This document shows, one piece after another, positions 12,584 to 29,339 of a DNA stretch of 38,277 nucleotides. The notes beneath the pieces are model-generated. The model worked only from the letters and a program-made list of their open reading frames with translations. It did not search any database and was not told the origin of the DNA. The position numbers and the translations under genes are program-made. Source of the DNA: a virus. The stretch lies in UHGV virus genome UHGV-0391791. The stretch is one strand, 5' to 3'. The first letter of the stretch is position 1; the number at the start of each line of letters is the position of its first letter.

Positions 12584-12876
12584 TCCTGTTCACTGGCCTC
12601 TTTGGCCATCTTCAAATACTGTTCAGGGCAATGCGCCATAACGCGCTGAAACAGTTCCAGCGCCAGATTGCGTTGCCCCTCATTAAATGCCATTGCCATA
12701 GCGTCCATCGGCGAGATAGCGGAAAACACACGACCTTTCTCCAGCACCGACCAGACAACGCGACGCCCCTGTTCACTGCTCATGACAAAGCGAATGTCAT
12801 CAATTTCACGCTGTGCCATGTCACGTTGCTTACGGGCGTTTTCTTCTTTCAGTTGATCATCTTCGTAATCTGTCAT
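12580..12876 (-). CDS. Hypothetical protein (98 aa) between portal and scaffold
   Basis: Track ORF, overlapping-stop coupling on both sides. Confidence 0.4.
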   Translation of the reverse strand: MTDYEDDQLKEENARKQRDMAQREIDDIRFVMSSEQGRRVVWSVLEKGRVFSAISPMDAMAMAFNEGQRNLALELFQRVMAHCPEQYLKMAKEASEQE

Positions 12877-14552
12877 TGTGATTGCCCACCCTGACCACTA
12901 ACTGCATTCGCCATAGCTGACAAAACACTCGGATCAGAAGTTTTAGCTTCGCTTAGCGTCTTGGCACCCTGTGCCGCCGCCATCCCCATCGCCATCATTT
13001 GTTGCTGCTGTTGCTGCTGTGCCCGTTGCTGGCGAGTCTGCTCAACCTGTTCCTGCGGAACAATGACGGTTGGAGACACTCCGGACATATCAGCGAATGC
13101 ATCGATCGCCTGATCAACGTTGAGTTTGTCGAGAGCTTCTGGTTTCGCTTGCGCAAGTTGACCAATGAAGTTGACCGTGGATGCCAGACTGGACAGGCCG
13201 ATAGACTTCTGCGCCTGAGCCATGACGGAAATGTATTCGACCTTCAGGGGCATACCTTCCATCGCGTCAGGCGGTGGCGGCAGCATGTTTTTACGCACCA
13301 TCATCGAGAAAGCGCGGTCAATGAGAGGATTAAGACATTCGTCGTTCAGACGCTCCAGAACCGGCCCCAACATCAGAAGTTTTTCTTCTTTCATTTCGAT
13401 CACCGCTTCAACAGGCATCGAGCGGGTATTGATGTTATGCAACATCATGAACAGATCGACAAAGTAGGCGCTGTTAATGATTTGCCGAGTGTCCTGAATG
13501 TCTGCTACCAGATCTGCTGTACTGGGGTTAACCAGATAAGCAGGCCTGAAACCATCCTGACCAGTAATCTGATCGATATACGTGATGTCGCCAGGAAGAA
13601 GGGAGGCACGCTGATTCTTGAGGGAAGTCGGAGCAACCATCGGCGGATTGGTGGCTTTATCAATCAACTGCGACTTGCGCTTCTGAAGAAGCTGCAATGC
13701 CTTAACAGGTCCAAGCGCCAGCATACCCGGGCATGATGATCCATAAACATCTTCGCCGTTAACTTCCCAGCGCGGAGCCATAATTGGAAACTCATCGAAT
13801 CCGGACTCACGCAACAACTTGTCGTTATCGCCACCAACCTCGTAATAAACCGATTTGAATGGCTTGTTCTTGCTATCCAGCTTCGATGTATCGCGGTCAA
13901 TGTTCGGGTAAACCGAATGCATCACTTCAATCCACTTCTCGTAGGTGCCGCTTTCCCACATGCTTTTTACGGATTCGCTGACGTTATTTAGCCCGAACTC
14001 CTGAACAAGCTGACGAACAGTCATAGCGAACTTGCGAAAACAGGTGTCCACACTGCCACGAGGTGAGTTAGCCAGGTAGTAACTGCCTATCGGGAATGGC
14101 ATTGTGCGAATGATGCCCTCGTCATCTTCCAGCACTGCCATTGCACCAGTGCTGTATGTGCCGAGGCTTCCGTATAACTGCGGCAGCGACTGATAGAGAT
14201 TCGACTTATTGAACATATCGTTCATGCGGTTCTGCACCGCCTCAAGCCACAACTTAACAGGGCCATAATCCATCATTTCAGGATCTGGCGTAGCCAGGCG
14301 AAACCACGGACGCGCGGGGCTTGTGATGCCTGACATCATGCCGCTGGCGAGAGTGCGCGCCGCCATAGTCCCGGTCGAATCAATAATGCGTGTATTGCGT
14401 CGATCGTTACGGTTGACCTCAGAAGTCAGAAAGCGGGAACCACGCGGGTTGATGTAATCACTCAACTCGCGCCAGTGCGGCTCGAACGACTGACGCTCGC
14501 TTTCAAGTTGTGCGAACTGTTTGTTCAATCGCTCTTTAGTTGTTTCCGCCAT
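12873..14552 (-). CDS. Portal (head-to-tail connector) protein (559 aa)
   Basis: Track ORF; size; Gln-rich/Ala-Met-rich C-terminus (QQQQQQQMMAMGMAAAQGA) like recalled T7 gp8 C-terminus; follows large terminase. Confidence 0.75.
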   Translation of the reverse strand: MAETTKERLNKQFAQLESERQSFEPHWRELSDYINPRGSRFLTSEVNRNDRRNTRIIDSTGTMAARTLASGMMSGITSPARPWFRLATPDPEMMDYGPVKLWLEAVQNRMNDMFNKSNLYQSLPQLYGSLGTYSTGAMAVLEDDEGIIRTMPFPIGSYYLANSPRGSVDTCFRKFAMTVRQLVQEFGLNNVSESVKSMWESGTYEKWIEVMHSVYPNIDRDTSKLDSKNKPFKSVYYEVGGDNDKLLRESGFDEFPIMAPRWEVNGEDVYGSSCPGMLALGPVKALQLLQKRKSQLIDKATNPPMVAPTSLKNQRASLLPGDITYIDQITGQDGFRPAYLVNPSTADLVADIQDTRQIINSAYFVDLFMMLHNINTRSMPVEAVIEMKEEKLLMLGPVLERLNDECLNPLIDRAFSMMVRKNMLPPPPDAMEGMPLKVEYISVMAQAQKSIGLSSLASTVNFIGQLAQAKPEALDKLNVDQAIDAFADMSGVSPTVIVPQEQVEQTRQQRAQQQQQQQMMAMGMAAAQGAKTLSEAKTSDPSVLSAMANAVSGQGGQSQ

Positions 14553-14566: not shown

Positions 14567-14773
14567 TTACTGACCAAGCAGCGTTTTACCGCTGGTATTA
14601 GCGGTTGATGTGTCGCCCTGAGAACCGGTAAGCAGCGTAGAACTACGACCAGCAGCAGCGCGACGGCGACGAGTTTCTTCGTCGCGGGCATCAACAACGG
14701 CGGCATCCTGCTCCTGTGGTGCTGCCTGAACTTCTGGTGTTGCAGGCACTGATGGTGAGCTACCCATGCACAT
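14567..14773 (-). CDS. Small Ser/Pro/Ala-rich ORF (68 aa) upstream of portal; uncertain
   Basis: Track ORF; GGAG Shine-Dalgarno upstream; alternative overlapping frame 14554..14793 cannot be excluded. Confidence 0.25.
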   Translation of the reverse strand: MCMGSSPSVPATPEVQAAPQEQDAAVVDARDEETRRRRAAAGRSSTLLTGSQGDTSTANTSGKTLLGQ

Positions 14774-14863
14774 ATCAATGACTCCGTACGCAATTAAATT
14801 ATTACCAATTTAACCACATATGATTTATTTATCGTAGATAGTTGACATTTAACGCACGAATTA

Positions 14864-14878
14864 TTACCTTTCAGGTAA
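14864..14878. promoter_or_regulatory. Operator-like palindrome TTACCTTTCAGGTAA, with a perfect TTGACA -35 hexamer at 14842..14847
   Basis: Perfect TTACC-N5-GGTAA dyad; identical 15-mer recurs at 34071..34085; intergenic. Confidence 0.55.
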
Positions 14879-15200
14879 CCAAAGAGTTCATTCCGGTTAC
14901 TAACCTGACTGGCTTGTCGTTAAATTGAACAGGTGGAGTGAGCTTTTATTTTGAGCAGTACGGCGTATGGCACATGCGCCGATAGCGGTCTGGATACGTT
15001 TAAGGGGCACCCTCCCTTGCTCGGGCAAACGAACCAGGTAGCCGGAATGTGCAAGTCAAGCGGTTTTATTCCGCGCACGGGGATTCACCATCCCGGCGAT
15101 TCGGTGTGACACCTCGGAAGAGACGAGGGTGCAACGATGAGAGCATTTATGGAGCCGCGACAAAGTGTGGTGCCTTAACAGGCTAAGTGCTATCAGCGTT

Positions 15201-15277
15201 GTGGCATTAGCTCAGTTGGACAGAGCAACCGCCTTCTAAGCGGTTGGTCGCAGGTTCGAATCCTGCATGCCACGCCA
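15201..15277 (+). tRNA. tRNA-Arg, anticodon UCU (reads AGA), phage-encoded, argU-like
   Basis: Manual cloverleaf: 7-bp acceptor stem GTGGCAT/ATGCCAC, D-arm GCTC/GAGC, anticodon stem ACCGC/GCGGT with loop CTTCTAA, T-arm GCAGG-TTCGAAT-CCTGC, discriminator G plus encoded CCA; 77 nt. Confidence 0.85.
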
Positions 15278-15320
15278 GAATCACGCCTAAGGACCGTGAT
15301 GCCAGAAGTTCCAGGTGCTT

Positions 15321-15364
15321 GGCGGTGATGGTTTCCCTTGAAGGACTATCACCGCCCTTTTTAC
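15321..15364 (+). terminator. Rho-independent terminator downstream of the tRNA
   Basis: 9-bp stem GGCGGTGAT/ATCACCGCC followed by CTTTTTTA. Confidence 0.5.
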
Positions 15365-15440
15365 AGCAGGACGCCATTGCGATGACTTCATGCTGTAAAC
15401 CAGTACAGCCACGGAAGGCATAACTCATTGCTTCCAGTTC

Positions 15441-15464
15441 GCCCGGTTCGCCGGGCATTTTTTT
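15441..15464 (+). terminator. Hairpin plus T-tract immediately upstream of the RBS of the 15476 gene
   Basis: GCCCGG-ttcg-CCGGGC followed by ATTTTTTT, then AAGGTGAG and ATG. Confidence 0.45.
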
Positions 15465-15475
15465 AAGGTGAGATT

Positions 15476-15853
15476 ATGAACGACCAGCAAATCGAAAAAG
15501 AAATCGTTGAGAAAGGCAAAACGGCACCGCGAATCACCCCGCAGCACATCGAAGACGTGATTATTAGTGAGCACTATTTCACGGCTGCAGAAGGGGTTCA
15601 TGGCGCTAATGAGCTTTTAAAACCGCATGAAAGCCCAATTGACTATTACCAGGAAGCGCACCCTGCTGAGTCACTTCTGACCTTCTGCGTCCTGGTGCTG
15701 CGCAACGGCTTCACCGTCACCGGAGAAAGCGCCTGTGCAAGCCCGGAAAACTTTGATGCAGAAATTGGTCGGAAGATTGCCCGGCAGAATGCTGTAAACA
15801 AAATCTGGATGCTCGAAGGTTACTTGCTGAAGCAGAAGCTAAGCGAGCAATAA
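15476..15853 (+). CDS. Hypothetical phage protein (125 aa), moron-like, opposite strand to the late operon; resembles Gp49-like phage proteins (recalled, unverified)
   Basis: Track ORF with SD AAGGTGAG; bracketed by terminators; C-terminal segment ...SPENFDAEIGRKIARQNAVNKIWMLEGYLLKQ. Confidence 0.5.
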   Translation: MNDQQIEKEIVEKGKTAPRITPQHIEDVIISEHYFTAAEGVHGANELLKPHESPIDYYQEAHPAESLLTFCVLVLRNGFTVTGESACASPENFDAEIGRKIARQNAVNKIWMLEGYLLKQKLSEQ

Positions 15854-15856
15854 CAC

Positions 15857-15870
15857 CGTGACATGTCACA
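15857..15870. repeat. 14-bp palindrome CGTGACATGTCACA (copy 1 of 3)
   Basis: Exact 14-mer also at 18122..18135 and, inverted, at 36466..36479. Confidence 0.8.
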
Positions 15871-15873
15871 AAC

Positions 15874-15900
15874 AGCCAGCCTATGAGCTGGCTTTGTTTT
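15874..15900 (+). terminator. Rho-independent terminator
   Basis: AGCCAGC-ctatga-GCTGGCT followed by TTGTTTT. Confidence 0.6.
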
Positions 15901-15943: not shown

Positions 15944-17419
15944 TTAAGCATAGGGATCGTAATCTGTGATGGCCTTGCCTTGCTGGTTCTGCTGACCGGG
16001 AATTCGCAGACGCTTCGACACAGGGAACGCAAACGTCAGCAGTAGCGCATCGCCTTTACCAGGAGAACGCCCAAGTCGCTCTTTGATATCTTCCTTCGGT
16101 TCGATAACGATTTTACCGTCCACTCGAACTTTGTACTCTGCTGCCGACAGGTCGTCCGCTGTTTCCTGGTCATCAAGCATGCCGCCCAGCCTCAGCCATG
16201 TCTTGCATGAGTTGAACATCTCCCCACGCTTGTTGAGCATCTGCGGGTCAGTAGACGCGCCACCGAACTGAACAAGTTGCCATGTACGACCCCAGCCGTC
16301 ACCGATTGACTTCAGACCAGTTCCGTAACCGAAGTCGATGAACACTGCGTCAGCCTGGTACTGGTCTTCAAAGTCAGCGATACGCTTCGCCATAATCAGA
16401 TCGTCAGTGGTCTTGTTGCCAGTCCACAGCATCTTACTGTGTAGCCCCTGCCGCAGGTATATCACCGCGTCATCAACGCCTGAATATGCCGGGTCAACAC
16501 CGATTATCACCGGAGCATGCGCCACCTGCGCAGCGGTTACCACCCGTTTCATTGCCTCATCAGTAAGACCGGTAGGGATAAACTGCAATTCAGATGCATC
16601 AGGGAATATGCCGCGCACACGGATTTTAACGAAGTCGCTGTCTTCCCCGTAGTCATCAACCCATTTCTGCAACTGCTGTTTGTTAGTGCCTTCCACCGTC
16701 CGGCTGTCAATCTGCGCAGTTTTCCAGCGGTGTTTATATTTGCGGAAACATTCGCGGAAACGCCCGGTGTTACGTGTAGGGTTTCCGAACGCCACCCAGA
16801 TAATCTCAGTGTCTTCGTCCGTAAGCGCACCCTCAGCAACTTCCCACACCAGATCCGCAATGTTCGACGCTTCATCGAATACCACGATGATGCGTTTGCG
16901 CTCGTTGTGTAGTCCGGCGAATGCCTCAGTGTTGTGCTCAGACCAGGGGATTGCGTCAGCTCGCCACCGCTTGTCGTGCCCAGGATCATTGCTGTACATC
17001 GCGGTAGCGGTACAGGTAAACCAGTCTTTCGTGATAGCAAGGTTCGACCACTTGATAATTTCCGGCCAGGTCTTCGTTCGTAGCTGGTTGTCGGTGTTGG
17101 CGGTCACCACGACCTTACAATCCTCGCAAGTGGACATGCCCCAGTTGATCAGCATTGAGATGAATGCGGATTTACCAATACCGTGACCAGAAGCGCGTGC
17201 CAGCATAAGCGGCTGATAGCGCGTCTCTGGATTCTGCAGGTGATCACGTATCTCTCGGAACGCATCGGCCTGCCACTGACGTGGGCCGGTAGCATGTGCC
17301 AGTTCAGTCCCCTCTTCCCCCCAAGGGAACGCATAGAGGGCATAACCAAGCGGATCGTGAGTGAACCCTGCAATATCCTCGATTAACTGCTCTTCAGGAG
17401 ATAACACGGTATCTGTCAC
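15944..17419 (-). CDS. Terminase large subunit (491 aa)
   Basis: Track ORF; Walker A-like GHGIGKS; size; between small terminase and portal. Confidence 0.85.
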   Translation of the reverse strand: MTDTVLSPEEQLIEDIAGFTHDPLGYALYAFPWGEEGTELAHATGPRQWQADAFREIRDHLQNPETRYQPLMLARASGHGIGKSAFISMLINWGMSTCEDCKVVVTANTDNQLRTKTWPEIIKWSNLAITKDWFTCTATAMYSNDPGHDKRWRADAIPWSEHNTEAFAGLHNERKRIIVVFDEASNIADLVWEVAEGALTDEDTEIIWVAFGNPTRNTGRFRECFRKYKHRWKTAQIDSRTVEGTNKQQLQKWVDDYGEDSDFVKIRVRGIFPDASELQFIPTGLTDEAMKRVVTAAQVAHAPVIIGVDPAYSGVDDAVIYLRQGLHSKMLWTGNKTTDDLIMAKRIADFEDQYQADAVFIDFGYGTGLKSIGDGWGRTWQLVQFGGASTDPQMLNKRGEMFNSCKTWLRLGGMLDDQETADDLSAAEYKVRVDGKIVIEPKEDIKERLGRSPGKGDALLLTFAFPVSKRLRIPGQQNQQGKAITDYDPYA

Positions 17420-18012
17420 TGATTACCATCCTGACGTTCTTTGAGTCGCTTCCTGGCTGCTGCTATGCGATCAGCAATTGTCACATTCACATTAACATCC
17501 AGACGTTCTTTGAACGCGTTGACATCAACATGCTTACCAATCAGCTCAAGGTTCTTCACCTTGTCAGGCCATTTAATTTTTTTGAGGATTGTCTCTATCG
17601 AATCCTCGTTCATGTTCATGATGGTCGATGACAGATCAAAGCCACTAAGCGTAGTGCGCCAGATTTTCGGCCACTCACGGATTGGTTTAAGGCTCCCATC
17701 GTCGTTGAGGATATCGATCACGTCCATCTGGTCGATCTCCACCAGGCGCATGAGAACGTAATCAGCACTGACGCGCATTCGTTTGTTGCGCTCCTCCATC
17801 AACTCGGCAATCCGTTTTTGAATGCGTTCATCGCGCATCATGACACTGGCTTTAACTGCCGCTGTATTTGGGGAGAATCCTGCGTTAATCGCTGCCTGAG
17901 TCTGGTTTTCAGGCGTTTTGATGTATGACTGGCAATAAGCCTCCTGCATTGCTGTTAGTGGCTTAAATTGCGTTGATTTGCGTTTATAGGTTTTAGGTTC
18001 AGCAGGCATCAT
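17416..18012 (-). CDS. Terminase small subunit (start placed at MMPAEP..., about 198 aa; track start 18090 judged too far upstream)
   Basis: Track ORF 17416..18090; its first 26 codons span tandem DNA repeats and a terminator hairpin, so the internal Met-Met at 18012 is preferred; overlaps terL start. Confidence 0.6.
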   Translation of the reverse strand: MMPAEPKTYKRKSTQFKPLTAMQEAYCQSYIKTPENQTQAAINAGFSPNTAAVKASVMMRDERIQKRIAELMEERNKRMRVSADYVLMRLVEIDQMDVIDILNDDGSLKPIREWPKIWRTTLSGFDLSSTIMNMNEDSIETILKKIKWPDKVKNLELIGKHVDVNAFKERLDVNVNVTIADRIAAARKRLKERQDGNQ

Positions 18013-18018
18013 AACCAC

Positions 18019-18051
18019 CGTGGTAATAGTTACCGTTGTGGTAATAGTACC
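18019..18051. repeat. Tandem repeat GTGGTAATAGT(T)ACC x2 in the small-terminase leader; contains everted half-sites GGTAA-tag-TTACC
   Basis: Read directly: ccgtGGTAATAGTTACCgttgtGGTAATAGTACCatg. Confidence 0.6.
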
Positions 18052-18081
18052 ATGCAAAATAAAGCCGCCATAGTTGGCGGC
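18052..18081 (-). terminator. Rho-independent terminator on the minus strand just upstream of the small-terminase gene
   Basis: Minus strand GCCGCCA-acta-TGGCGGC followed by CTTTATTTTG. Confidence 0.55.
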
Positions 18082-18121
18082 AGTATTCAAAACCCATCAA
18101 ATTCATCATGCATAATCTACT

Positions 18122-18135
18122 CGTGACATGTCACA
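18122..18135. repeat. 14-bp palindrome CGTGACATGTCACA (copy 2 of 3), overlapping the stop codon of the 18131..18472 gene
   Basis: Exact match to copies at 15857 and 36466. Confidence 0.8.
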
Positions 18136-18472
18136 CTATTAATTTCGTTTCATGCCAGCCTTTAGTCACCCAGCATTGCGAGTCACCATTGCACGGGCAT
18201 GAATTCACAGGAACTCTCTCGCCGCACTTACCGCAACGTTTTCTGCTGATCGATTTTATACGCCCGCGCACGCGTGCATCATCCTGGCGGATCAGTAACG
18301 CTATATACTCACCAAATTCGTAAGGCGCACGCCCGGGGCGACGCGTGGCACAGTTACGCTCCAGCATTTCAATTTCCTGAGCATCAAGCACAATCTCCAG
18401 CTTACGCACACCAGATGCAGCTTGTCTGGCTCTCTGAGCGGCTTTGCGCTCTGCTGCTGATTTAGCCATCAA
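18131..18472 (-). CDS. Hypothetical protein (113 aa) with basic N-terminus and C-terminal Cys cluster (zinc-ribbon-like); last gene before the late operon
   Basis: Track ORF; C-terminus RKRCGKCGERVPVNSCPCNGDSQCW. Confidence 0.45.
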   Translation of the reverse strand: MMAKSAAERKAAQRARQAASGVRKLEIVLDAQEIEMLERNCATRRPGRAPYEFGEYIALLIRQDDARVRGRIKSISRKRCGKCGERVPVNSCPCNGDSQCWVTKGWHETKLIV

Positions 18473-18496
18473 TATTTACCTTTATCGCGAACATAC

Positions 18497-18718
18497 TTAG
18501 CTGTGTGTTGCCGATGTGCGGAGATTCTCTTCTATCAATTCCACGCATTCTGACCGACGAACAAATAATTCGTCTCCGTTATGAATTACGACATAGCCGT
18601 AAGCGGTTTTACGCATCACATCGAACTCATCCCATACGGAAATACCGCACTCTGCTAACGAGCAATCCAAATAATCTTCCGGATGCTTGTCGGTGTTATT
18701 AATGATGCGAATCCTCAA
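18497..18718 (-). CDS. Hypothetical protein (73 aa)
   Basis: Track ORF in the nin-like early cluster. Confidence 0.4.
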   Translation of the reverse strand: MRIRIINNTDKHPEDYLDCSLAECGISVWDEFDVMRKTAYGYVVIHNGDELFVRRSECVELIEENLRTSATHS

Positions 18719-18748
18719 ATCTTTTCACCTTTAAGGATAAGTTGCATG

Positions 18749-19345
18749 TTAGCCACGGTTAACCTCCTTCGGCGGTTCTGGTAGCGGCATCCAGTGGGTT
18801 ACCTCTTTGAGATACAGGTCTTCGCCATCACCGTCATCCCAAGTGGGATTGCCATCATTAAACCAGTCGCCATATACGCCGACCTGAGTGTTGGGGATGT
18901 TTGGCGGGTAGTTGTTTTTAAAGTCAGCTGCTAACACATAGCATTGTCGCTCTCCCATTTCTGGCATTCGCTCACTACAGCTTATCCAACCATCCGGAGT
19001 TACCGGAGAGTTGCCAGCGGCCTCGGGCATATCCGGACCTTTGCGAATAGCCTTTGCAAGCTCAACAGGGTCATCGTAAAGCCAGTCGCCAGTTTGTGGG
19101 TGATTTGCTTCTGCAAGCTGCGCAGCCCATTCAAGACCATCTTTTTGACCTTGGAGATAATCAAGCGGCAACTCTTCATGATTACTTGCAGGTTCGGCAC
19201 TATCAGCTTCGCGCCGCTTCTGTAGCTCTGCTGCCATTGCTCTCACGACTTCAACTGGTGCCCTTGCAGCAAACTCTATGTTGGTGATCAGCTCATTAAG
19301 ATATTGCTCGCCTGGATACTGTTTCTTATCGGTTATAGTGGTCAT
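18749..19345 (-). CDS. Hypothetical prophage protein (198 aa), DUF551-like C-terminus (recalled)
   Basis: Track ORF; Trp/Asp-rich C-terminal segment typical of small lambdoid accessory proteins. Confidence 0.5.
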   Translation of the reverse strand: MTTITDKKQYPGEQYLNELITNIEFAARAPVEVVRAMAAELQKRREADSAEPASNHEELPLDYLQGQKDGLEWAAQLAEANHPQTGDWLYDDPVELAKAIRKGPDMPEAAGNSPVTPDGWISCSERMPEMGERQCYVLAADFKNNYPPNIPNTQVGVYGDWFNDGNPTWDDGDGEDLYLKEVTHWMPLPEPPKEVNRG

Positions 19346-19355
19346 GTGTTACTCC

Positions 19356-19622
19356 TTAACCCGCAGTGCTTTCAACTGATGAGGGGAATAAAATCTTTTC
19401 ATCAAATCCGGCATTCATATCATGGACAGCAACACACCAATCCATCGACGAACGATTATCAAGAGCCTCCATGATTTCATCCATGCGGCGCAGGTCATAC
19501 AGGTAAATGCTTTTATCGCCAATGGTGTAAAAACCAATTTTTTTCGGTGATGGGCAGCGATCAAGAACGTCCTGTAATTCGCTCAACCATGCTTGTTCTT
19601 TTTTTGTCAAAGTTGCCATATC
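19356..19622 (-). CDS. Hypothetical protein (about 88 aa; start placed at MATLTKKEQ)
   Basis: Track ORF 19356..19661; internal Met gives start abutting the upstream gene stop. Confidence 0.35.
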   Translation of the reverse strand, partial: DMATLTKKEQAWLSELQDVLDRCPSPKKIGFYTIGDKSIYLYDLRRMDEIMEALDNRSSMDWCVAVHDMNAGFDEKILFPSSVESTAG

Positions 19623-20172
19623 ACTCTCCTTTGATGCCAATGCCAGCGGCGCGGGAATCATCCCATCGCTTTACTTCTTCACGAATTACGTCAATGCATT
19701 CTTTCGAATCCATTAGGTAATCTTCATCAAAAAGACGTTCCTGTTCGTTTTCTATCGCAACAATGATTGCTTCAACTAACTTTTGTGCCTGAGAACCACT
19801 TTCTAACTCTGCTATGCGCTTACTCCCATCAGAGATAACACCTTCGTAATACTCACGCTGCTCGTTGAGTTTTGATTTTGCTGCTTCCAGCTCAACGCGC
19901 AACTTCCCTACCGTTAGCGCAATATCCTCGTTCTCCTGGTCGCGGGATTTGATGTATTGCTGGTTCCTTTCCCGTTCATCCAGTAGTGCCAGCACGGTTT
20001 CTGGTCCGGCCAGAAATTTGAAGGCGTTGAGCGCATCAATATCCACACCGTAATCTTTAAGTTCCTGTTCACTTAACAAATCATCATCAGCTGGCAACAT
20101 TAACAGGCGTTCCATTGCTGGAATTGCACGTTCCGCCGCCTCACGCAGTGCCTGGTAATTAATTTCGCTCAC
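19621..20172 (-). CDS. Hypothetical acidic coiled-coil protein (183 aa)
   Basis: Track ORF; overlapping-stop coupling with neighbours. Confidence 0.45.
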   Translation of the reverse strand: MSEINYQALREAAERAIPAMERLLMLPADDDLLSEQELKDYGVDIDALNAFKFLAGPETVLALLDERERNQQYIKSRDQENEDIALTVGKLRVELEAAKSKLNEQREYYEGVISDGSKRIAELESGSQAQKLVEAIIVAIENEQERLFDEDYLMDSKECIDVIREEVKRWDDSRAAGIGIKGE

Positions 20173-20705
20173 TGGTTGCCTCCTTTGCGAAGCTGGGCAG
20201 CAAAGTCAACTAACCACTCAGTCATTTCAACCTTCCCTACCAGGTCTGAACCAGGGTGCATACAGCAATCACTCTGCGCCGCTTTGAAATCCTTATACTC
20301 ATATTCTTGGGCCACCAGATTTTTTGCAGCTTCTATAGCAGCATCCACGCCCTGCGCCCGTACTTCAGCCAGGAAAGCGTCGGTGGCTGGGGTGTCAACA
20401 CGGATGCTGTCGCGCAAGATGAAAAATGCATTGAGCATTCCAGTCTCTGGCACTTCATCCTGATGCTTCTCATACGCATCAAGAGCCTTCATCATCTCAT
20501 GTCCGAATGGTTGAGGGTGCGCAGACTTCAGCCCCGCACTCTCCGCTGCCAGCGCATTAGCACGCACCAGTTGCACTTCCAGTTGCGTTGCCAAATCGCT
20601 GAGCAGCTTTGCCACACTACGCATATCAACGGCACCACATTCAGCTTTCAGTTCCGAAGCCATCTCATGCCCGGCGGAAACTAACCCTTTGATATTACTT
20701 TCCAT
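20169..20705 (-). CDS. Hypothetical protein (178 aa)
   Basis: Track ORF in the early leftward operon. Confidence 0.45.
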   Translation of the reverse strand: MESNIKGLVSAGHEMASELKAECGAVDMRSVAKLLSDLATQLEVQLVRANALAAESAGLKSAHPQPFGHEMMKALDAYEKHQDEVPETGMLNAFFILRDSIRVDTPATDAFLAEVRAQGVDAAIEAAKNLVAQEYEYKDFKAAQSDCCMHPGSDLVGKVEMTEWLVDFAAQLRKGGNQ

Positions 20706-20766
20706 CTTTACCCTCGCTTATCCACATAACTTATTGATTACATTGATAACTAAAAAGATCGTCGAT

Positions 20767-21114
20767 TCAGAACTCTTCGATGTTCCAGCCGCCACCTGCT
20801 TTCTTTGGTTTAACCGTTACCCCGATGATTCGGAACGGATACTGATCTGCGGCTACTTTGGTTTTCACCCTGGCGTCGTCGGTCCAGAATCCCCCTTTCA
20901 CTTCGTGCAGTTCCATCTCTCCGGTGGCGAGCATCACAGCGAAATCGGGCGTATAGAACGTGTTGTCAGCTAACCGCAGCTTAATACCCTCGAATCGATA
21001 CCAGGCGATTTCCCCTGCACGTTTACGCTGCTCAAGGTGCTGGCAATACGCAGATTCTGTTTTGTTCATCTGGCCTGTTTTGAGTCGACCAAGAGCCTGT
21101 ATCTGTTTTCTCAT
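20767..21114 (-). CDS. Small putative PD-(D/E)xK-type nuclease (115 aa)
   Basis: Track ORF; motif ...YTPDFAV...ELHEVKG consistent with a D...E-x-K active site; SD GAGGT. Confidence 0.45.
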   Translation of the reverse strand: MRKQIQALGRLKTGQMNKTESAYCQHLEQRKRAGEIAWYRFEGIKLRLADNTFYTPDFAVMLATGEMELHEVKGGFWTDDARVKTKVAADQYPFRIIGVTVKPKKAGGGWNIEEF

Positions 21115-21117
21115 GAT

Positions 21118-21132
21118 TTACCTCTAAGGTAA
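21118..21132. promoter_or_regulatory. Operator-like palindrome TTACCTCTAAGGTAA overlapping the RBS of the 20767..21114 gene
   Basis: Perfect TTACC-N5-GGTAA dyad 4 nt upstream of the start codon. Confidence 0.55.
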
Positions 21133-21179
21133 TTAAAAACCACATAAGACACGAAATCAATAGATTTTAGAATATTTTA

Positions 21180-21194
21180 TTACCCAACAGGTAA
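21180..21194. promoter_or_regulatory. Operator-like palindrome TTACCCAACAGGTAA
   Basis: Perfect dyad; an AT-rich promoter-like stretch lies between it and site 21118..21132. Confidence 0.55.
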
Positions 21195-21204
21195 TTATCA
21201 AGAC

Positions 21205-21228
21205 GTAAAAAAATGCGCTATCGCGCTG
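21205..21228 (-). terminator. Weak terminator after the P-like gene (short GCGC stem plus T7 run on the minus strand)
   Basis: Minus strand GCGC-gata-GCGC followed by ATTTTTTT; stem only 4 bp. Confidence 0.3.
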
Positions 21229-21231
21229 GTA

Positions 21232-22032
21232 TTACTTGATAAATCCTGCCGCCTTTCCCCGCCTGTATTCCTCCATCAGCCACTGCGCCGGTGTTATTCC
21301 CCCAAGGGTGGCGGCGTTAGGCATGCACCCGAAACTTCGCCCTGGTGGATGGTAAACGTCTCTCCCTGTGTCCGGAGGCGTACTCATGGGTTCTGGCTTT
21401 GCCTGTATGCTGATCACCGGATCGGGTATCTGCTGTCCGGAAGCCACCTTTTTCGCCCAATCATCGAGCAGCCTGCGTGCGTGTTTCTCAACCTCAATCT
21501 CGCTAAGCTGGCGCTGATACATTGCGCGGCGGGTATCACATACGACCCAGTACATAACCGGATGTCGCCACGGGAATCTTTCGGGACCACCAGGATATAA
21601 ACTTTTTTCCTTGCTGTACCGGTGAAACTCCGCCATCACATCGTCAATGGTGACGCCAAGAACCATCTTGCTGTCTTTGCACCACTTGATAAATTGCCCT
21701 GGAGACGGCCAGAACGGAGATTCACTGGCGCGGGCGTGGCGCATACCAGCAGAAACCTGTTCACGGGTTCGGATCCCCCCTTCGGCAAACGCAGCAATCC
21801 ACTGCTGTTTTGCAGCAACTTCCTGCTCTGGCGTCTTCAGGTTGGTTACCACTGCCGCCGGAAACAGTTGTTTCAGCTGTTTAAAAAGGGCATCAACAAG
21901 CCTCTCTGCTGACATGTTCACCACATTGTCATTGTTGACGTACTGATGCTCATAACCTGACATGCGAGAAAGGGCTTCTCCGTCACGGTTTTGTATCGCG
22001 GTAAAAACGTTGTTCACAAGAAATCCTCCCAT
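21232..22032 (-). CDS. Replication protein P-like (helicase loader)
   Basis: Track ORF; segment ...QWIAAFAEGGIRTREQVSAGMRHARASESPFWPSPGQFIKWCKD matches recalled lambda P (...QWVLAFRENGITTMEQVNAGMRVARRQNRPFLPSPGQFVAWCRE). Confidence 0.75.
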   Translation of the reverse strand: MGGFLVNNVFTAIQNRDGEALSRMSGYEHQYVNNDNVVNMSAERLVDALFKQLKQLFPAAVVTNLKTPEQEVAAKQQWIAAFAEGGIRTREQVSAGMRHARASESPFWPSPGQFIKWCKDSKMVLGVTIDDVMAEFHRYSKEKSLYPGGPERFPWRHPVMYWVVCDTRRAMYQRQLSEIEVEKHARRLLDDWAKKVASGQQIPDPVISIQAKPEPMSTPPDTGRDVYHPPGRSFGCMPNAATLGGITPAQWLMEEYRRGKAAGFIK

Positions 22033-22829
22033 GCTTCAGGGCTGTTCCAGTGCGGAACGTTGTTATCAGGTAATGTTGATTGCTTCTGTCTGCTAATCTG
22101 CAGCCGCCTTGCCAGCTTCTGCTCCCACTGTGCCTGATGGTATGCCTTACCCTCAGCCATCCAGTAAATTCTGAACTCTGCAAGTTCCTGTGCCGTTGGC
22201 AGACTGTCCAGGTAGATCCCCTGCAATGAGCTTTTCCGAAGAAAGTCATCTGATGGCTGCCATTGTTCATGCATGACAAATTTGCCTAATTGCCCTGGCC
22301 CACCAGGAGGAACAAAGTTATTCATCACGGCGTTGTTTGCGTCGGGGTCATGAGGCACAGAATCCCCGTTTTTTGTCCTGCTCTCCCTCTCTTGGTTAAA
22401 TGACTGGTTATATGACTGGTTCTGGATCCCGTTTTTGGGATCATTCAACATCCCGTTTTTGGGATCATTCAACATCCCGTTTTTGGGTATATTCCCGTTT
22501 TCGGTAACATTACCGTTTTCGGGTTCATTGCCCCCCTCCCGGTTGCCTTTAATGTTCCCGTTTTTGGTTATATTAAGAGAGAAAACCCGCACTCTTTTTG
22601 TCGCTCCCTTTCTCTCTCCGGTATCTGAAATAAGCCCCATTTTCATGAGCGATATAAGCCCGGCCTGCACGGTTTTTTTATTCAGGCAAGTGTCTTTAAC
22701 GAGGCGTTCTATGCTGGGGTAGCAGAGGTTATATTCATCGGCTCTGTCAGCCATCGAGAGCAGTATGAGCTTTAATGATGAGCTACCTGGATCTGTCTCC
22801 CAGGCCCAATCTGTTGCATGTCTGCTCAT
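22014..22829 (-). CDS. Replication initiator O-like protein with origin iterons inside the gene
   Basis: Track ORF; N-terminal HTH-like region, central Asn/Gly-rich peptide repeats encoded by DNA iterons; directly upstream of the P-like gene. Confidence 0.6.
   Translation of the reverse strand: MSRHATDWAWETDPGSSSLKLILLSMADRADEYNLCYPSIERLVKDTCLNKKTVQAGLISLMKMGLISDTGERKGATKRVRVFSLNITKNGNIKGNREGGNEPENGNVTENGNIPKNGMLNDPKNGMLNDPKNGIQNQSYNQSFNQERESRTKNGDSVPHDPDANNAVMNNFVPPGGPGQLGKFVMHEQWQPSDDFLRKSSLQGIYLDSLPTAQELAEFRIYWMAEGKAYHQAQWEQKLARRLQISRQKQSTLPDNNVPHWNSPEAWEDFL
22418..22570. repeat. Putative replication origin: about six iterons with core CCCGTTTT(T/C)GG, flanked by tandem TATGACTGGT repeats
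   Basis: Read directly: atcattcaacatcccgtttttggg repeated twice exactly, with further CCCGTTTTCGG / ACCGTTTTCGGG / CCCGTTTTTGG copies. Confidence 0.55.
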
Positions 22830-22844
22830 GATTAATCTCCGCTA

Positions 22845-23045
22845 TCAGCTTGAATGTTGTGGGGAGGAATTAATCATGATCTGCTTAATCTCAGCCCTGA
22901 TGCGACGGTTTGATTCCATGGTGCACTCAACACAGTGTCCGTTGTAAACCCAACGTTCACTGTCATGTCCGTGCTTACATGGTTTTCCGGTGTAGTAGCG
23001 TTTAAGTCCGCGCTTTGCGGCATCAATACGTGTAATGATTTCCAT
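22845..23045 (-). CDS. Small zinc-ribbon protein (about 66 aa from MEIITRID...), in the cII-equivalent position
   Basis: Track ORF 22845..23108; Cys/His cluster KPCKHGH...GHCVEC; internal start chosen because the upstream residues are hydrophobic and lack an SD. Confidence 0.4.
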   Translation of the reverse strand: MEIITRIDAAKRGLKRYYTGKPCKHGHDSERWVYNGHCVECTMESNRRIRAEIKQIMINSSPQHSS

Positions 23046-23124
23046 GGTAAGCCCTGTTATTAGTATTGGGATTACGGTCATTTTGTGCTGACACAAAAAA
23101 AAGATCAACCAGATTTGGTTTTTT

Positions 23125-23139
23125 ATTACCTTTGAGGTG
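23125..23139. promoter_or_regulatory. Variant operator-like site TTACCTTTGAGGTGC
   Basis: Left half-site perfect, right half GGTGC; same variant right half as site 23494..23508. Confidence 0.3.
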
Positions 23140-23152
23140 CGAATAGATATGA

Positions 23153-23172
23153 AAAGACCGCCGGGTGGCGGT
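23153..23172 (-). terminator. Hairpin between the Cro-like gene and the next leftward gene (tR1-like position), weak T-tract
   Basis: AGACCGCC-gggt-GGCGGTCT; downstream run on the minus strand is only TTT. Confidence 0.3.
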
Positions 23173-23195
23173 CTACAGAGGGTTGTGGCTGGATA

Positions 23196-23426
23196 TCATG
23201 AGTAGAAGAAGTATGCCAGTTCTGCTTTTGAGCGCAGCCATTGTCTTGTTTTACAGGCTTTAAAAAGCCCATTCATCAATACTTTACCTGGCATTTTGCG
23301 CTTACCTGTTAAGTGAGTCTGGATATAGTGACTCGTCGTTCCGGCTTCCTGTGCGAAGGCTTCACGCTCATCCGGAGTAAGTGCAAGCCAGTGCTTTTTG
23401 AAATCGAAATGTCCGTTATCGCTCAT
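23196..23426 (-). CDS. Cro-like small HTH regulator (76 aa)
   Basis: Track ORF; divergent from the repressor gene, pointing toward the O and P genes. Confidence 0.5.
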   Translation of the reverse strand: MSDNGHFDFKKHWLALTPDEREAFAQEAGTTSHYIQTHLTGKRKMPGKVLMNGLFKACKTRQWLRSKAELAYFFYS

Positions 23427-23462
23427 AGCTATTGCCTGATATTTATTTCAGATAATAAATAT

Positions 23463-23477
23463 TCACCCATAAGGTAA
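23463..23477. promoter_or_regulatory. Operator site (variant TCACCCATAAGGTAA) in the spacer of a leftward PR-like promoter
   Basis: Minus strand TTGTTA-17 nt-TATTAT with the dyad inside the spacer. Confidence 0.45.
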
Positions 23478-23493
23478 CAAAAATCAAGGATAG

Positions 23494-23508
23494 TTACCTA
23501 TGGGGTGC
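23494..23508. promoter_or_regulatory. Operator site (variant TTACCTATGGGGTGC)
   Basis: Perfect left half, degenerate right half; lies between the two other sites of the divergent region. Confidence 0.3.
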
Positions 23509-23510
23509 AT

Positions 23511-23525
23511 TTACCTGTTGGGTAA
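23511..23525. promoter_or_regulatory. Operator site TTACCTGTTGGGTAA (perfect) in the repressor/Cro divergent region
   Basis: Perfect TTACC-N5-GGTAA dyad. Confidence 0.6.
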
Positions 23526-23580
23526 TATTGCTTTAAATTGAATCATCTACTGATTCATATACGAGGCGATTTTCCAGAAA

Positions 23581-24165
23581 ATGAAAAGTATCCAGGACGT
23601 CCGCAGGCAAAATCTCAACGACTTGATCGACCGTGAATTCAATGGTGTTCAGACGCGGATGGCAGAAAAACTTGGAACTCAGGCAAATCTGGTAAACCGC
23701 TGGGCTCTTGGCAAGAAGGTTATCGGCGACCAGGTTGCGCGAAAAATTGAAGCTGCCGCCAATAAACCCCGTAACTGGCTTGATATCGATCGCTCGCTTT
23801 CTCAGGAAGGTTTTCAGCCTGTCGGCCCAAGCGACATTGGTCAGCTGGCGGCTCACAACCTGGAACGCTGGATGAGCGAAAGCCGCGACCTTTCAACACA
23901 GGGAAAACTTCACCGCGCATCCGGCGTCGCCCAGGTGACAATCAGCCGCCTGTTAAACAATGAGGTCAGCGTTTCCATTTCCACCCTGGAGAATGTTGCA
24001 TCCGCATTCGGGCGTCACGGCTATGAATTACTGATTCACCCGCACGACCCTGCGACCATCAACTATGACCGCTCGCGCTACGCATTGTTACCCGAAACCG
24101 AGAAAGCAAAGATCGAAAGTTACATTGAATTTGTCATCAACCAGAACGAAAAAAACAAACAATAA
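23581..24165 (+). CDS. Phage repressor (194 aa) with two HTH-like segments and no recognisable LexA/S24-type autocleavage domain
   Basis: Track ORF; HTH-like segments MAEKLGTQANLVNRWALGKK and GVAQVTISRLLNNEVSVSISTLENVASAFG; no Ala-Gly/Ser...Lys peptidase module by eye. Confidence 0.6.
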   Translation: MKSIQDVRRQNLNDLIDREFNGVQTRMAEKLGTQANLVNRWALGKKVIGDQVARKIEAAANKPRNWLDIDRSLSQEGFQPVGPSDIGQLAAHNLERWMSESRDLSTQGKLHRASGVAQVTISRLLNNEVSVSISTLENVASAFGRHGYELLIHPHDPATINYDRSRYALLPETEKAKIESYIEFVINQNEKNKQ

Positions 24166-24186
24166 AATCATATTTTTCAGTAAGTA

Positions 24187-24210
24187 AGCCGCCTTCTGGC
24201 GGCTTTTTTA
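24187..24210 (+). terminator. Rho-independent terminator after the repressor gene
   Basis: AGCCGCC-ttct-GGCGGCT followed by TTTTTTA. Confidence 0.7.
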
Positions 24211-24222
24211 TTGTCTACACAA

Positions 24223-24237
24223 TTACCTTAAGGGTAA
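24223..24237. promoter_or_regulatory. Operator site TTACCTTAAGGGTAA upstream of a rightward PL-like promoter
   Basis: Perfect dyad; promoter TTGACA at 24257..24262. Confidence 0.6.
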
Positions 24238-24256
24238 TTTTTTTAACTCATATCTA

Positions 24257-24285
24257 TTGACACCAAACCAAATACGCATAATCAT
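24257..24285 (+). promoter_or_regulatory. Sigma70-like promoter (TTGACA with weak -10 TAATCA/CATAAT) for the rightward early operon, flanked by two operator dyads
   Basis: Perfect -35 hexamer; -10 candidates at acceptable spacing. Confidence 0.4.
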
Positions 24286-24299
24286 TACCTCAACGGTAA
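24285..24299. promoter_or_regulatory. Operator site TTACCTCAACGGTAA overlapping the -10/+1 of the PL-like promoter
   Basis: Perfect TTACC-N5-GGTAA dyad. Confidence 0.6.
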
Positions 24300-24318
24300 C
24301 AGACCGAGGTAACAAGTT

Positions 24319-24471
24319 ATGCAGTGGAAAATCATCAACGGTTGGTACTGCGTTACTGCATGCGGATTCATGAGCTGGAAGTTCCGCACCTTACAGGAAG
24401 GCATTAAGTGGGCTTTCGTCAGCAAAGAAGCTCGCGATGTGGCCAACGATAACGAGATATGGGAGGGCTGA
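24319..24471 (+). CDS. Small ORF (50 aa), first gene of the rightward early operon
   Basis: Below the track size cutoff; found manually; SD GAGGT upstream; Trp/Cys-containing peptide MQWKIINGWYCVTACGF... Confidence 0.3.
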   Translation: MQWKIINGWYCVTACGFMSWKFRTLQEGIKWAFVSKEARDVANDNEIWEG

Positions 24472-24473
24472 TA

Positions 24474-26529: not shown

Positions 26530-26578
26530 CCACCACCGCGGCGCCACGCGCGCCGCACTGCAACCAAGAGAGGTATTT

Positions 26579-28070: not shown

Positions 28071-28073
28071 ACG

Positions 28074-29324: not shown

Positions 29325-29339
29325 AATTCACCCGTATAG

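What the first reader, a model, noticed from the sequence alone, without database searches (positions are those of the whole stretch)
14842..15900. tRNA-Arg(UCU) with a long structured leader and a moron gene inserted between large terminase and portal
A 1.4-kb insert interrupts the late operon on the opposite strand. It contains a perfect TTGACA hexamer and operator dyad (14842..14878), a roughly 320-bp GC-rich, dyad-rich non-coding stretch, a well-formed tRNA-Arg with anticodon UCU distinct from host argU in its acceptor and anticodon stems, two terminators, and a 125-aa gene whose RBS directly abuts a terminator hairpin. A phage-borne rare-codon tRNA under apparent repressor control would be expressed only on induction. 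The leader could be a processed precursor or an independent structured RNA, and the terminator immediately upstream of the 15476 gene suggests read-through regulation.
Basis: partly seen in the sequence, partly recalled or inferred. Interest (0 to 1): 0.55.

Follow-up and report, generated by a model that had tools for sequence, protein, structure and literature searches.

The report
Conserved phage leader RNA before tRNA-Arg
The "leader" in front of this phage's arginine tRNA is a separate, highly conserved folded RNA, absent from Rfam, that sits at the start of early operons in many E. coli and Salmonella phages and probably helps RNA polymerase read through terminators.

Summary
This includes a TTGACA promoter overlapped by an operator dyad, a ~320-nt non-coding stretch, a sound tRNA-Arg(UCU), two intrinsic terminators, and a 125-aa gene (Pfam PF13876) whose RBS abuts the second terminator. 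The window is a phiV10/epsilon15-like phage.

The non-coding stretch is not a tRNA leader. It is an autonomous structured RNA made of hairpin P0, a core (H1, P2, P3, P4 with pseudoknot, P5) and a long helix P6 that ends at tRNA base +1.

- **Structure:** 97.7% of cells pair, 12 pairs show compensatory changes, and 0 of 500 shuffles match this.
- **Known families:** there is no Rfam 15 hit.
- **Distribution:** homologues occur in 1838 of 5426 complete E. coli genomes, unannotated. They also occur in P1 (between trnI and ban), in N-less lambdoid and Stx2 phages just after cI and PL, and in more than 200 viral or metagenomic contigs. Over half have no tRNA nearby.

Nearly all copies lie in repressor-controlled early units, upstream of same-strand genes and usually of terminators. 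No partner protein is conserved nearby.

My best reading, inferred only, is a put-like cis-acting antiterminator RNA. The main rival is a processed, trans-acting ncRNA.

The parts
14842..14847 (+). -35 hexamer TTGACA of the unit's promoter. The -10 is a weak TACCTT at 14865-14870, after a 17-nt spacer.
   Evidence: Read from the sequence. The same promoter and dyad arrangement is conserved in other Uetakevirus loci. The consensus scan did not call it because the -10 is weak.
14864..14878 (.). Operator dyad TTACCTTTCAGGTAA, overlapping the -10.
   Evidence: There are 14 copies of TTACC-N5-GGTAA in the window against 0.5 expected. The equivalent site is annotated as a repressor binding site in the epsilon15 record.
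14882..14947 (+). P0, a long 5' hairpin. Its 3' strand is GGAGUGAGCUUUU.
   Evidence: MFE fold. Homologous hairpins (CACAAC..AAAGCGCA / UGCGCUU..GUUGUG) precede H1 in other members. The equivalent region is annotated as an RNase III site in epsilon15.
14961..15128 (+). Core of the conserved RNA.
- H1: 14961-14981
- P2: 14985-14993 pairs with 15034-15042, enclosing a variable arm
- P3: 15060-15074
- P4: 15080-15094
- P5: 15112-15128
   Evidence: CM R1 scores 155 bits, E = 2e-44. Pair counts give 97.7% paired, 12 pairs with compensatory changes, and 0 of 500 shuffles reaching this.
15037..15055 (+). The most conserved single-stranded segment, GGUAGCCGGAAUGUGCAAG. CCGGAAUGUGCAAG is kept, apart from rare substitutions or small insertions, in the divergent subgroup too. 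GUGC (15049-15052) can pair with the H1 loop GCAC (14970-14973).
   Evidence: The loop pairing is almost invariant, so it has no covariation support and is untested.
15086..15106 (+). Pseudoknot. The P4 loop CACC (15086-15089) pairs with GGUG (15103-15106).
   Evidence: One pair covaries: C-G in 66 sequences becomes A-U in 8, with none broken.
15132..15201 (+). P6, a roughly 17-bp helix. CAACGAUGAGAGCAUUU (15132-15148) pairs with AAGUGCUAUCAGCGUUG (15185-15201), enclosing a variable tip. Its last base is tRNA G1.
   Evidence: Mean duplex energy of each 5' strand with its own 3' strand is -18.98 kcal/mol, against -15.73 +/- 0.32 for permuted partners, with 0 of 2000 permutations reaching it. 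There are many compensatory variants.
15201..15277 (+). tRNA-Arg(UCU), with CCA encoded.
   Evidence: ARAGORN. Rfam RF00005 scores 73.3 bits.
15321..15364 (+). Intrinsic terminator T1: a 14-bp stem followed by CUUUUU.
   Evidence: A homologous T1 (GGCGGU...ACCGCYCUUUUUACA) is present in lambdoid members.
15441..15464 (+). Intrinsic terminator T2 (GCCCGGUUCGCCGGGC followed by AUUUUUUU), directly abutting the RBS of the next gene.
15476..15853 (+). 125-aa cargo gene of the N4 Gp49 / Sf6 gene 66 family. Function unknown.
   Evidence: Pfam PF13876, 123 bits. PHROG 322. 92-94% DNA identity to Sf6 gene 66.
15874..15900 (+). Terminator that closes the unit, just before the convergent TerL gene.
   Evidence: The phiV10 record annotates it as a terminator on the other strand.

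Best explanation
**Shown.** Window 14882-15201 encodes a self-contained, pseudoknotted RNA made of P0, a core (H1 to P5) and P6. It belongs to a large phage RNA family that Rfam does not hold. It is transcribed from a promoter overlapped by the phage operator. Downstream of it lie a tRNA-Arg, two intrinsic terminators and one protein gene. In relatives the RNA is the constant part. The tRNA and the gene are replaceable cargo.

**Inferred.** The RNA acts in cis on the RNA polymerase that has just made it, in the manner of the HK022 put RNA. It would make elongation resistant to termination, so that transcription started on derepression crosses the long untranslated stretch and T1/T2 and reaches the downstream genes.
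- In lambdoid and Stx2 relatives, those genes are the whole early-left operon as far as xis and int, and there is no N protein.
- In P1, the downstream genes are ban and dbn.
- The long helices P0 and P6 probably also act as processing sites that separate the RNA from the tRNA and the mRNA.
For: 1. **Real, strand-specific RNA structure.** 97.7% of cells pair and 173 cells carry double changes, with 0 of 500 shuffles reaching this. Sliding the 3' partners drops pairing to 24-47%. G-U pairs are frequent, which fits only the + strand. P6 is supported by a permutation test.
2. **Position.** The RNA lies directly downstream of repressor-controlled early promoters in three unrelated phage groups.
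   - Uetakeviruses: operator-overlapped promoter.
   - Lambdoid and Stx2 phages: about 25-150 nt after a PL-like promoter that follows cI.
   - P1: inside the C1-controlled ban operon.
3. **Terminators.** 94 of 106 distinct loci have a terminator within about 500 nt downstream and before the genes. T1 and T2 are homologous between Uetakevirus and lambdoid members.
4. **No N-like protein.** None is found at the head of these early-left operons. No plus-strand promoter was predicted between the RNA and the genes in Stx2a_WGPS2.
5. **No conserved neighbour gene.** The largest downstream protein cluster covers 38 of 127 loci, so any partner must be host-encoded.
6. **Resemblance of H1 to put stem I.** H1 (A-CGGCG...CAUGCGUCG) repeats the lower stem I and CAUG bulge of HK022 putL and the HK639 putL-like RNA. 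In 2.55 Mb of session sequence this pattern occurred only in those put RNAs and in this family. That part of put carries U28 and the stem I/II fork that contact the beta' zinc-binding domain (PMC9378689).
7. **Natural deletion.** Epsilon15 carries one deletion that removes the core, the tRNA and half of T1 together.
Against: - There is no functional data of any kind.
- The covariance model finds nothing at HK022 putL/putR or at the HK639 putL-like RNA. The resemblance to put is therefore a post-hoc match of about 15 nt, and HK022 putR lacks the CAUGCG part.
- ST64B has the same P6, T1, T2 and downstream genes but lacks the core. T1/T2 read-through therefore does not universally need this core.
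- In P1 the RNA lies 2.3 kb into the operon with no strong terminator after it. In SopranoGao it follows the lysis genes.
- About 10% of loci have no detected terminator.
- The closed architecture, flanked by long helices and by tRNAs, would suit an excised stable RNA equally well.
Confidence: 0.45

Rival explanations
1. The RNA is a stable, processed, trans-acting non-coding RNA. The early transcript would be cut at the long helices P0 and P6 (RNase III) and at the tRNA 5' end (RNase P). This would release a core RNA of about 170-240 nt that binds a conserved host factor or acts as a decoy. That would make it comparable to the phage-borne, tRNA-adjacent GOLLD and ROOL RNAs, whose function is unknown.
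For: - The architecture is closed, and P6 ends exactly at tRNA +1.
- 45% of loci have an adjacent tRNA. In P1 the tRNA lies immediately 5' of the RNA.
- P0 corresponds to the site annotated as RNase III in epsilon15.
- Several single-stranded segments are invariant, as expected for a binding surface.
- The leader is a tandem array of RNA modules. One of them gives a sub-threshold match to the known Hfq sRNA family STnc100, which a preprint relates to PasD.
Against: - In P1-type loci the core has no terminator of its own and runs straight into the ban 5' UTR.
- It is almost always upstream of same-strand genes.
- There is no evidence of a stable species.
- The covariance models of the known large phage ncRNAs do not match.
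Confidence: 0.3
2. The RNA is a cis-regulatory sensor, either riboswitch-like or binding a protein or tRNA. It would set expression of the downstream genes through termination, translation or mRNA stability in response to a cellular signal.
For: - It has the size, pseudoknot and invariant unpaired nucleotides typical of aptamers.
- It occupies a 5'-UTR position in P1, about 90 nt before the ban start.
- Terminators lie downstream.
Against: - T1 lies 150-250 nt away, with a tRNA or another RNA module in between, so there is no adjacent expression platform.
- The downstream genes are functionally unrelated.
- No known riboswitch model matches.
Confidence: 0.1
3. The stretch is simply the 5' leader of the tRNA-Arg precursor.
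For: It is co-transcribed with the tRNA and directly abuts it in the window.
Against: - More than half of the related loci have no tRNA within 1.5 kb.
- P1-type loci have a different tRNA (CAU anticodon; tRNA-Ile2 in the P1 record) on the 5' side instead.
- Conservation and covariation are far beyond what any tRNA leader needs.
Confidence: 0.02
4. It is a DNA-level signal (pac site, origin or protein-binding array) or a small protein gene.
For: - It lies next to the terminase genes.
- ORFs of 42-52 aa overlap it.
Against: - Compensatory changes preserve pairing, and abundant G-U pairs work on one strand only.
- It also occurs in PL leaders and in the P1 ban operon, far from any packaging genes.
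- The variable arms differ by lengths that are not multiples of three, which breaks every reading frame.
Confidence: 0.02

Closest known systems
HK022 put RNAs (putL, putR) and the HK639 putL-like antiterminator RNA
   Same: - All are nascent, protein-independent leader RNAs placed just downstream of an early promoter in lambdoid phages that lack N, with terminators downstream.
- The first hairpin shares A-CGGCG...CAUGCGUCG with putL and with the HK639 putL-like RNA, and is followed by AGC opening the second stem (AGCG in HK022 putL).
   Different: - put is about 70 nt with two stems. This RNA has a core of about 170 nt plus P0 and P6, five or more helices and a pseudoknot.
- The covariance model gives no hit on put regions.
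- No locus held a PR-side copy; one locus (L024) has a second, tandem copy.
- Activity and RNAP binding are untested.
Lambda-type nut sites with N protein (boxA/boxB)
   Same: It occupies the same genomic slot, between PL and the early-left genes and upstream of terminators.
   Different: - No N-like protein is present.
- The boxA-like motif I first suspected is the 3' strand of helix P6.
Phage-borne, tRNA-adjacent large structured RNAs (GOLLD, ROOL)
   Same: These are prophage-encoded, are often next to tRNA genes, have elaborate conserved structure, and have no known function (from my own knowledge and the preprint listed).
   Different: - Those RNAs are much larger and occur in other bacterial groups.
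- Their Rfam models do not match here.
- This RNA has a strict position at the head of an operon.
STnc100 / PasD prophage sRNAs (Rfam RF02076; bioRxiv 10.64898/2026.05.13.724894)
   Same: The RNA module that follows P6 in the ST64B PL leader gives a sub-threshold STnc100 match of 35 bits against a gathering score of 47. T1 is that module's terminator.
   Different: - In the window that module is replaced by tRNA-Arg.
- The core RNA has no similarity to STnc100.
T7-type RNase III processing hairpins and the lambda N-leader RNase III site
   Same: P0 and P6 are long, nearly perfect helices that lie between functional RNA units of an early transcript. P0 is annotated as an RNase III site in the epsilon15 record.
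   Different: Cleavage has not been tested. These helices flank a conserved non-coding RNA rather than separating mRNAs.

Membership tests
tRNA (Rfam RF00005) | Cloverleaf structure scoring above the gathering threshold, with an intact anticodon loop. | tested here: met
   73.3 bits against a gathering score of 29. ARAGORN calls tRNA-Arg(tct) at 15201-15277. CCA is encoded.
put antiterminator RNA (HK022 / HK639) | Detectable sequence and structure homology to putL or putR. | tested here: not met
   CM R1 run with filters off gives no hit at HK022 putL/putR or at the HK639 putL-like RNA at E <= 10. Only a stem motif of about 15 nt is shared.
put antiterminator RNA (HK022 / HK639) | An architecture of about 70 nt with two stem-loops. 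| tested here: not met
   The core is about 170 nt, with H1, P2, P3, P4/pseudoknot and P5, plus P0 and P6.
put antiterminator RNA (HK022 / HK639) | Location downstream of an early, repressor-controlled promoter, with terminators downstream and no N protein. | tested here: met
put antiterminator RNA (HK022 / HK639) | Binds the RNAP beta' zinc-binding domain and suppresses termination without protein factors. | not testable with these tools
   This needs in vitro transcription or rpoC ZBD mutants.
Lambda-type nut site | A boxA element, a boxB hairpin and a cognate N protein. | tested here: not met
   The candidate boxA-like motif is the 3' strand of P6. No N-like protein is found downstream.
Any Rfam 15 family (4227 models, including riboswitches, GOLLD, ROOL, STnc100, AgvB and Esr41) | A covariance-model match over 14880-15200. 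| tested here: not met
   Nothing reaches gathering threshold. There is no meaningful match at E <= 10, and the same holds for the mEp460 copy.
Pfam PF13876 Phage_gp49_66 (the 125-aa gene) | An HMM score above the gathering threshold. | tested here: met
   123.2 bits against 27, with full-length coverage of the profile.
RNase III processing site (P0, P6) | A long, near-perfect dsRNA helix that is cleaved by RNase III. | tested here: inconclusive
   Helices of about 17 bp with one mismatch are present and conserved. Epsilon15 annotates P0 as an RNase III site. Cleavage is untested.

The most novel reading that the evidence does not exclude
This would be a new class of RNA-polymerase-modifying antiterminator RNA. 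It is larger than put, pseudoknotted, and not detectably homologous to it. It would stand in for the N protein in a large group of N-less lambdoid phages, including Stx2a and Stx2c converting phages, and is also used by P1 and epsilon15/phiV10-like phages. It is present, unannotated, in about one third of complete E. coli genomes.
Probability: 0.4. Interest if true: 0.85.

Novelty: new variant of a known kind. Interest (0 to 1): 0.72.

Why it matters
**Why it matters.** Only a handful of RNAs are known to reprogram RNA polymerase on their own, chiefly put and EAR. An abundant third family with rich covariation would give a new model for RNA-based control of elongation.

**What it would explain.** It would account for how N-less lambdoid phages express their early-left operons, which include the excision genes. 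These phages include Shiga-toxin phages of E. coli O157:H7. It would also explain how P1 expresses ban.

**If the mechanism is wrong.** This would still be a widespread, well-supported structured RNA that is missing from Rfam and from genome annotation. It lies in well-studied phages (P1, phiV10, Stx2 phages) where it can be tested directly.

**Cargo.** The slot behind the RNA is a cargo site that carries either a tRNA or an sRNA-like module.

Tried and rejected
1. **boxA/boxC reading of the conserved 3' motif RGUGCUCUYNNCGUUGUGG.** Rejected. It is the 3' strand of helix P6, shown by compensatory changes and a permutation test. The exact rrn boxA 13-mer in locus L086 lies beside a minus-strand terminator in a rearranged locus and was not pursued.
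2. **The RNAalifold long-range alternative to H1** (GGCACAU pairing with AUGUGCC, and so on). It has no covariation. The local hairpin H1 has clean G-C to A-U and flipped pairs. Only the 4-bp loop contact is kept, as an untested possibility.
3. **Homology to put by covariance model.** Negative.
4. **N-like proteins downstream.** None found by PHROGs.
5. **Functional replacement using ST64B.** It shares the flanks but lacks the core, carrying a different upstream RNA instead. This cuts against a simple one-to-one role.
6. **Literature.**
   - No paper text contains the core sequence strings.
   - King 2011 on new put-like RNAs (PMC3187212) is not held. I could not check whether this family was noticed there.
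   - A 2026 preprint on coevolutionary ncRNA mining could not be read.
7. **MFE folding of the whole leader alone.** Uninformative, z = -1.5.
8. **Formal pair counting on P6 mini-hairpins.** Abandoned, because the two bulge registers cannot share one structure line.
Full report
**What the window is.** The target region is about 97-98% identical to Escherichia phage phiV10 and related Uetakevirus (epsilon15-like) phages. On the minus strand lie TerS (17416-18090, PF03592), TerL (15944-17419), gp3 (14567-14773) and the portal (12873-14552, PF12236).

**Checking the observation.** Each element is present.
- **Promoter:** TTGACA lies at 14842-14847, followed by a 17-nt spacer and a weak -10, TACCTT.
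- **Operator:** the dyad TTACCTTTCAGGTAA (14864-14878) overlaps the -10. TTACC-N5-GGTAA occurs 14 times in the window against 0.5 expected, often in pairs near regulatory genes. It is therefore the phage's dispersed operator, and the promoter should be repressed in the lysogen. The equivalent epsilon15 site is annotated as a repressor site.
- **tRNA:** tRNA-Arg(UCU) is sound, at 73 bits with CCA encoded.
- **tRNA versus host:** the remaining E. coli records match best at 80-90%; in the listed rows that is 85.9% over bases 7-77.
- **Terminators:** T1 (15321-15364) and T2 (15441-15464) are intrinsic terminators.
- **Gene:** the RBS of the 125-aa gene (15476-15853) abuts T2. The gene belongs to PF13876, the N4 Gp49 / Sf6 gene 66 family of unknown function.
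- **Codon usage:** AGA and AGG run at 6.5 and 3.0 per 1000 codons, roughly three times the E. coli averages as I recall them. The excess sits in a few genes (31504-33966, 35541-36173, 22014-22829, 1268-3070). Portal, capsid and terminase have almost none.

**The leader is an RNA family of its own.**
- **Homologues in unrelated phages:** BLAST with only 14860-15205 found matches at 72-83% identity in several groups.
  - P1, P7, D6, SJ46 and RCS47: the match lies in P1 between trnI and ban.
  - Lambdoid phages mEp460, cdtI, Ayreon, Stx2c and Stx2a phages: the match lies just downstream of the cI repressor.
  - Also Tyrion, PAT1, Klebsiella phage SopranoGao and a Stenotrophomonas phage.
- **E. 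coli genomes:** 1838 of 5426 complete genomes hold a match. PGAP annotates nothing there.
- **Public collections:**
  - The exact 19-mer GGTAGCCGGAATGTGCAAG occurs in more than 120 IMG/VR contigs.
  - A pattern from a different part of the RNA recovered 23 true copies among GTDB species genomes. All were Enterobacterales, apart from one 1.7-kb contig binned as Bacillota.
  - A third pattern gave 90 true copies in 100 metagenome loci.
- **Known families:** Rfam 15 has no match, even at E <= 10.

**Structure.**
- **Pair counts:** on 43 non-redundant sequences, and again on 80 CM-aligned ones, the helices H1, P2, P4 and P5 and a pseudoknot (P4 loop CACC with GGUG) are 97.7% paired.
  - 12 pairs show compensatory changes, involving 173 cells.
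  - No shuffle in 500 reaches the observed covariation.
  - Sliding the partners by 1-3 columns drops pairing to 24-47%.
- **Strand:** frequent G-U pairs mean the structure exists only in the plus-strand transcript.
- **Divergent metagenomic subgroup:** it adds flipped pairs in H1 (G-C to C-G, C-G to U-A) and a GCGC version of P4. It keeps UAUGGCACAUG, CACCA, GGCGA, GGUGUGAC and GGAAGAG, and keeps CCGGAAUGUGCAAG apart from rare substitutions or small insertions.
- **P6:** downstream of P5, the conserved CAACGAUGAGAGCAUU pairs with the motif AGUGCUCUCAGCGUUG to form a helix of about 17 bp. Mean duplex energy with the true partner is -18.98 kcal/mol, against -15.73 +/- 0.32 for permuted partners (0 of 2000). 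Variants such as GAUGACUUUCU with AGAGAGUCAUC are compensatory. This overturned my earlier idea that the motif was a boxA.
- **P0:** a similar long hairpin precedes H1 (window 14882-14947). It corresponds to the site annotated as RNase III in the epsilon15 record.
- **Extent:** in the window the RNA runs from about 14882 to 15201, and the last P6 base is tRNA base G1.

**Contexts.** The RNA occurs in three main settings.
- **Uetakeviruses:** an operator-overlapped promoter, then the RNA, then in most cases tRNA-Arg, then T1 and T2, then one or two variable cargo genes.
- **Lambdoid and Stx2 phages:** cI, a terminator, a PL-like promoter with operators, then the RNA (H1 begins 7-150 nt after the -10). 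Another RNA module, T1 and T2 follow, and then the whole early-left operon. In Stx2a_WGPS2 that operon runs from gp09 and YfdQ to excisionase and integrase, with no N gene. No plus-strand promoter-like site was found until about 2.8 kb further downstream.
- **P1-like phages:** the RNA follows tRNA-Ile2 and runs into ban, inside the C1-controlled ban operon.

Other features of the contexts:
- **tRNA neighbours:** about 45% of loci have an adjacent tRNA, and more than half have none.
- **Terminators:** 94 of 106 distinct loci have a terminator within about 500 nt downstream. T1 and T2 are homologous between the Uetakevirus and lambdoid versions.
- **Neighbouring proteins:** no protein gene is a constant neighbour, and no N-like protein was found.
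- **Copy number:** only one locus (L024) holds two copies.
- **Epsilon15:** one deletion removes the core, the tRNA and half of T1 together.

**Mechanism (inferred).** The evidence consists of position, terminators, absence of N and absence of a phage-encoded partner.
- The RNA heads repressor-controlled early units.
- Terminators lie ahead of the genes.

Together these point to a cis-acting RNA that modifies the transcribing polymerase, as HK022 put does.
- **Supporting lead:** H1 (A-CGGCG...CAUGCGUCG, then AGCG opening the next stem) repeats the lower stem I and CAUG bulge of HK022 putL and the HK639 putL-like RNA. In 2.55 Mb of session sequence the pattern occurred only in those RNAs and in this family. 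That part of put holds U28 and the stem fork that contact the beta' zinc-binding domain (PMC9378689).
- **Limits of that lead:** it is a post-hoc resemblance, not a test. My covariance model does not detect put, and putR lacks half of the motif.

**Evidence against, and rivals.**
- **ST64B:** it shares P6, the next module, T1, T2 and the downstream genes with mEp460. It lacks the core and carries a different upstream RNA.
- **P1 and SopranoGao:** their contexts are not at the head of an operon.
- **Closed design:** the long flanking helices, P6 ending at tRNA +1, and a tRNA directly 5' in P1 would suit an excised, stable, trans-acting RNA equally well.
- **Next module:** in lambdoid members the module after P6 is closed by a tRNA-acceptor-like helix (GUGGUG...CACCAC). 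In ST64B it gives a sub-threshold hit to the Hfq sRNA family STnc100, which a 2026 preprint relates to PasD. In the window the tRNA-Arg sits exactly in that slot.

I put the put-like antiterminator reading at about 0.45, a processed trans-acting RNA at 0.3, and a sensor-type cis-regulator at 0.1. The tRNA-leader, DNA-signal and coding readings are effectively excluded.

**Verdict.** The real finding is a widespread, covariation-supported RNA family that Rfam 15 does not hold and PGAP leaves unannotated. It heads early operons in Uetakeviruses, N-less lambdoid and Stx phages, and sits inside the ban operon of P1. I could not read King et al. 2011, so prior notice of this family cannot be ruled out. 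Function is untested, and the experiments that would decide it are straightforward.

Noticed in passing
window 34503-35394: Rfam hits to isrK (67.7 bits) and C4 antisense RNA (61.2 bits) lie directly upstream of an AntA/AntB antirepressor gene (34738-35394). This is a P1-type immI immunity module in an epsilon15-like phage.
   Followed up: partly
window 18012-35481 (14 sites): The operator dyad TTACC-N5-GGTAA is scattered across the genome, often in pairs about 45-60 nt apart (21118/21180, 23463/23511, 24223/24285). This resembles the dispersed C1 operators of P1.
   Followed up: partly
L006 (epsilon15) 2543-2653: Epsilon15 keeps only P0, H1 and the start of P2. A single deletion removed the rest of the core, the tRNA and the 5' half of T1, leaving T2 and the PF13876 gene.
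   Followed up: yes
L192 (Salmonella phage ST64B) 2238-3054, minus strand: This PL leader of about 800 nt lacks the core but shares P6, the following module, T1 and T2 with mEp460. The module between P6 and T1 gives a sub-threshold Rfam STnc100 hit of 35 bits against a gathering score of 47.
   Followed up: partly
L005 2740-2880; L247 about 3660-3860: The RNA module after P6 is closed by a tRNA-acceptor-like helix (GUGGUG...CACCAC). In L247 the slot holds what looks, by eye, like a degenerate tRNA with a long insertion; I did not run a tRNA scan on it. In the window the genuine tRNA-Arg occupies the same helical frame.
   Followed up: partly
window 15192: The window's P6 has A where the family consensus has C (GCUAUC against GCUCUC). 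This creates a G·A mismatch and weakens the helix from about -22.6 to -16.2 kcal/mol.
   Followed up: no
L024 3993-4160 and 4800-4965: This is the only locus with two tandem copies of the RNA, about 800 nt apart on the same strand.
   Followed up: no
L086 3361-3373: An exact 13-nt rrn-type boxA (TGCTCTTTAACAA) lies just after P5. The locus is rearranged, with a convergent gene and its terminator inserted there.
   Followed up: partly
window 35541-36173 and 31504-33966: These two ORFs are unusually rich in AGA codons, with 10 in 210 codons and 13 in 820. They are the likeliest beneficiaries of the phage tRNA-Arg(UCU).
   Followed up: no
L190 (Klebsiella phage SopranoGao) 2931-3103: A full-length copy of the RNA (119 bits) sits after the lysis genes, near a genome end, in a 61.6-kb Lastavirus. 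This context differs from the early-operon rule.
   Followed up: no
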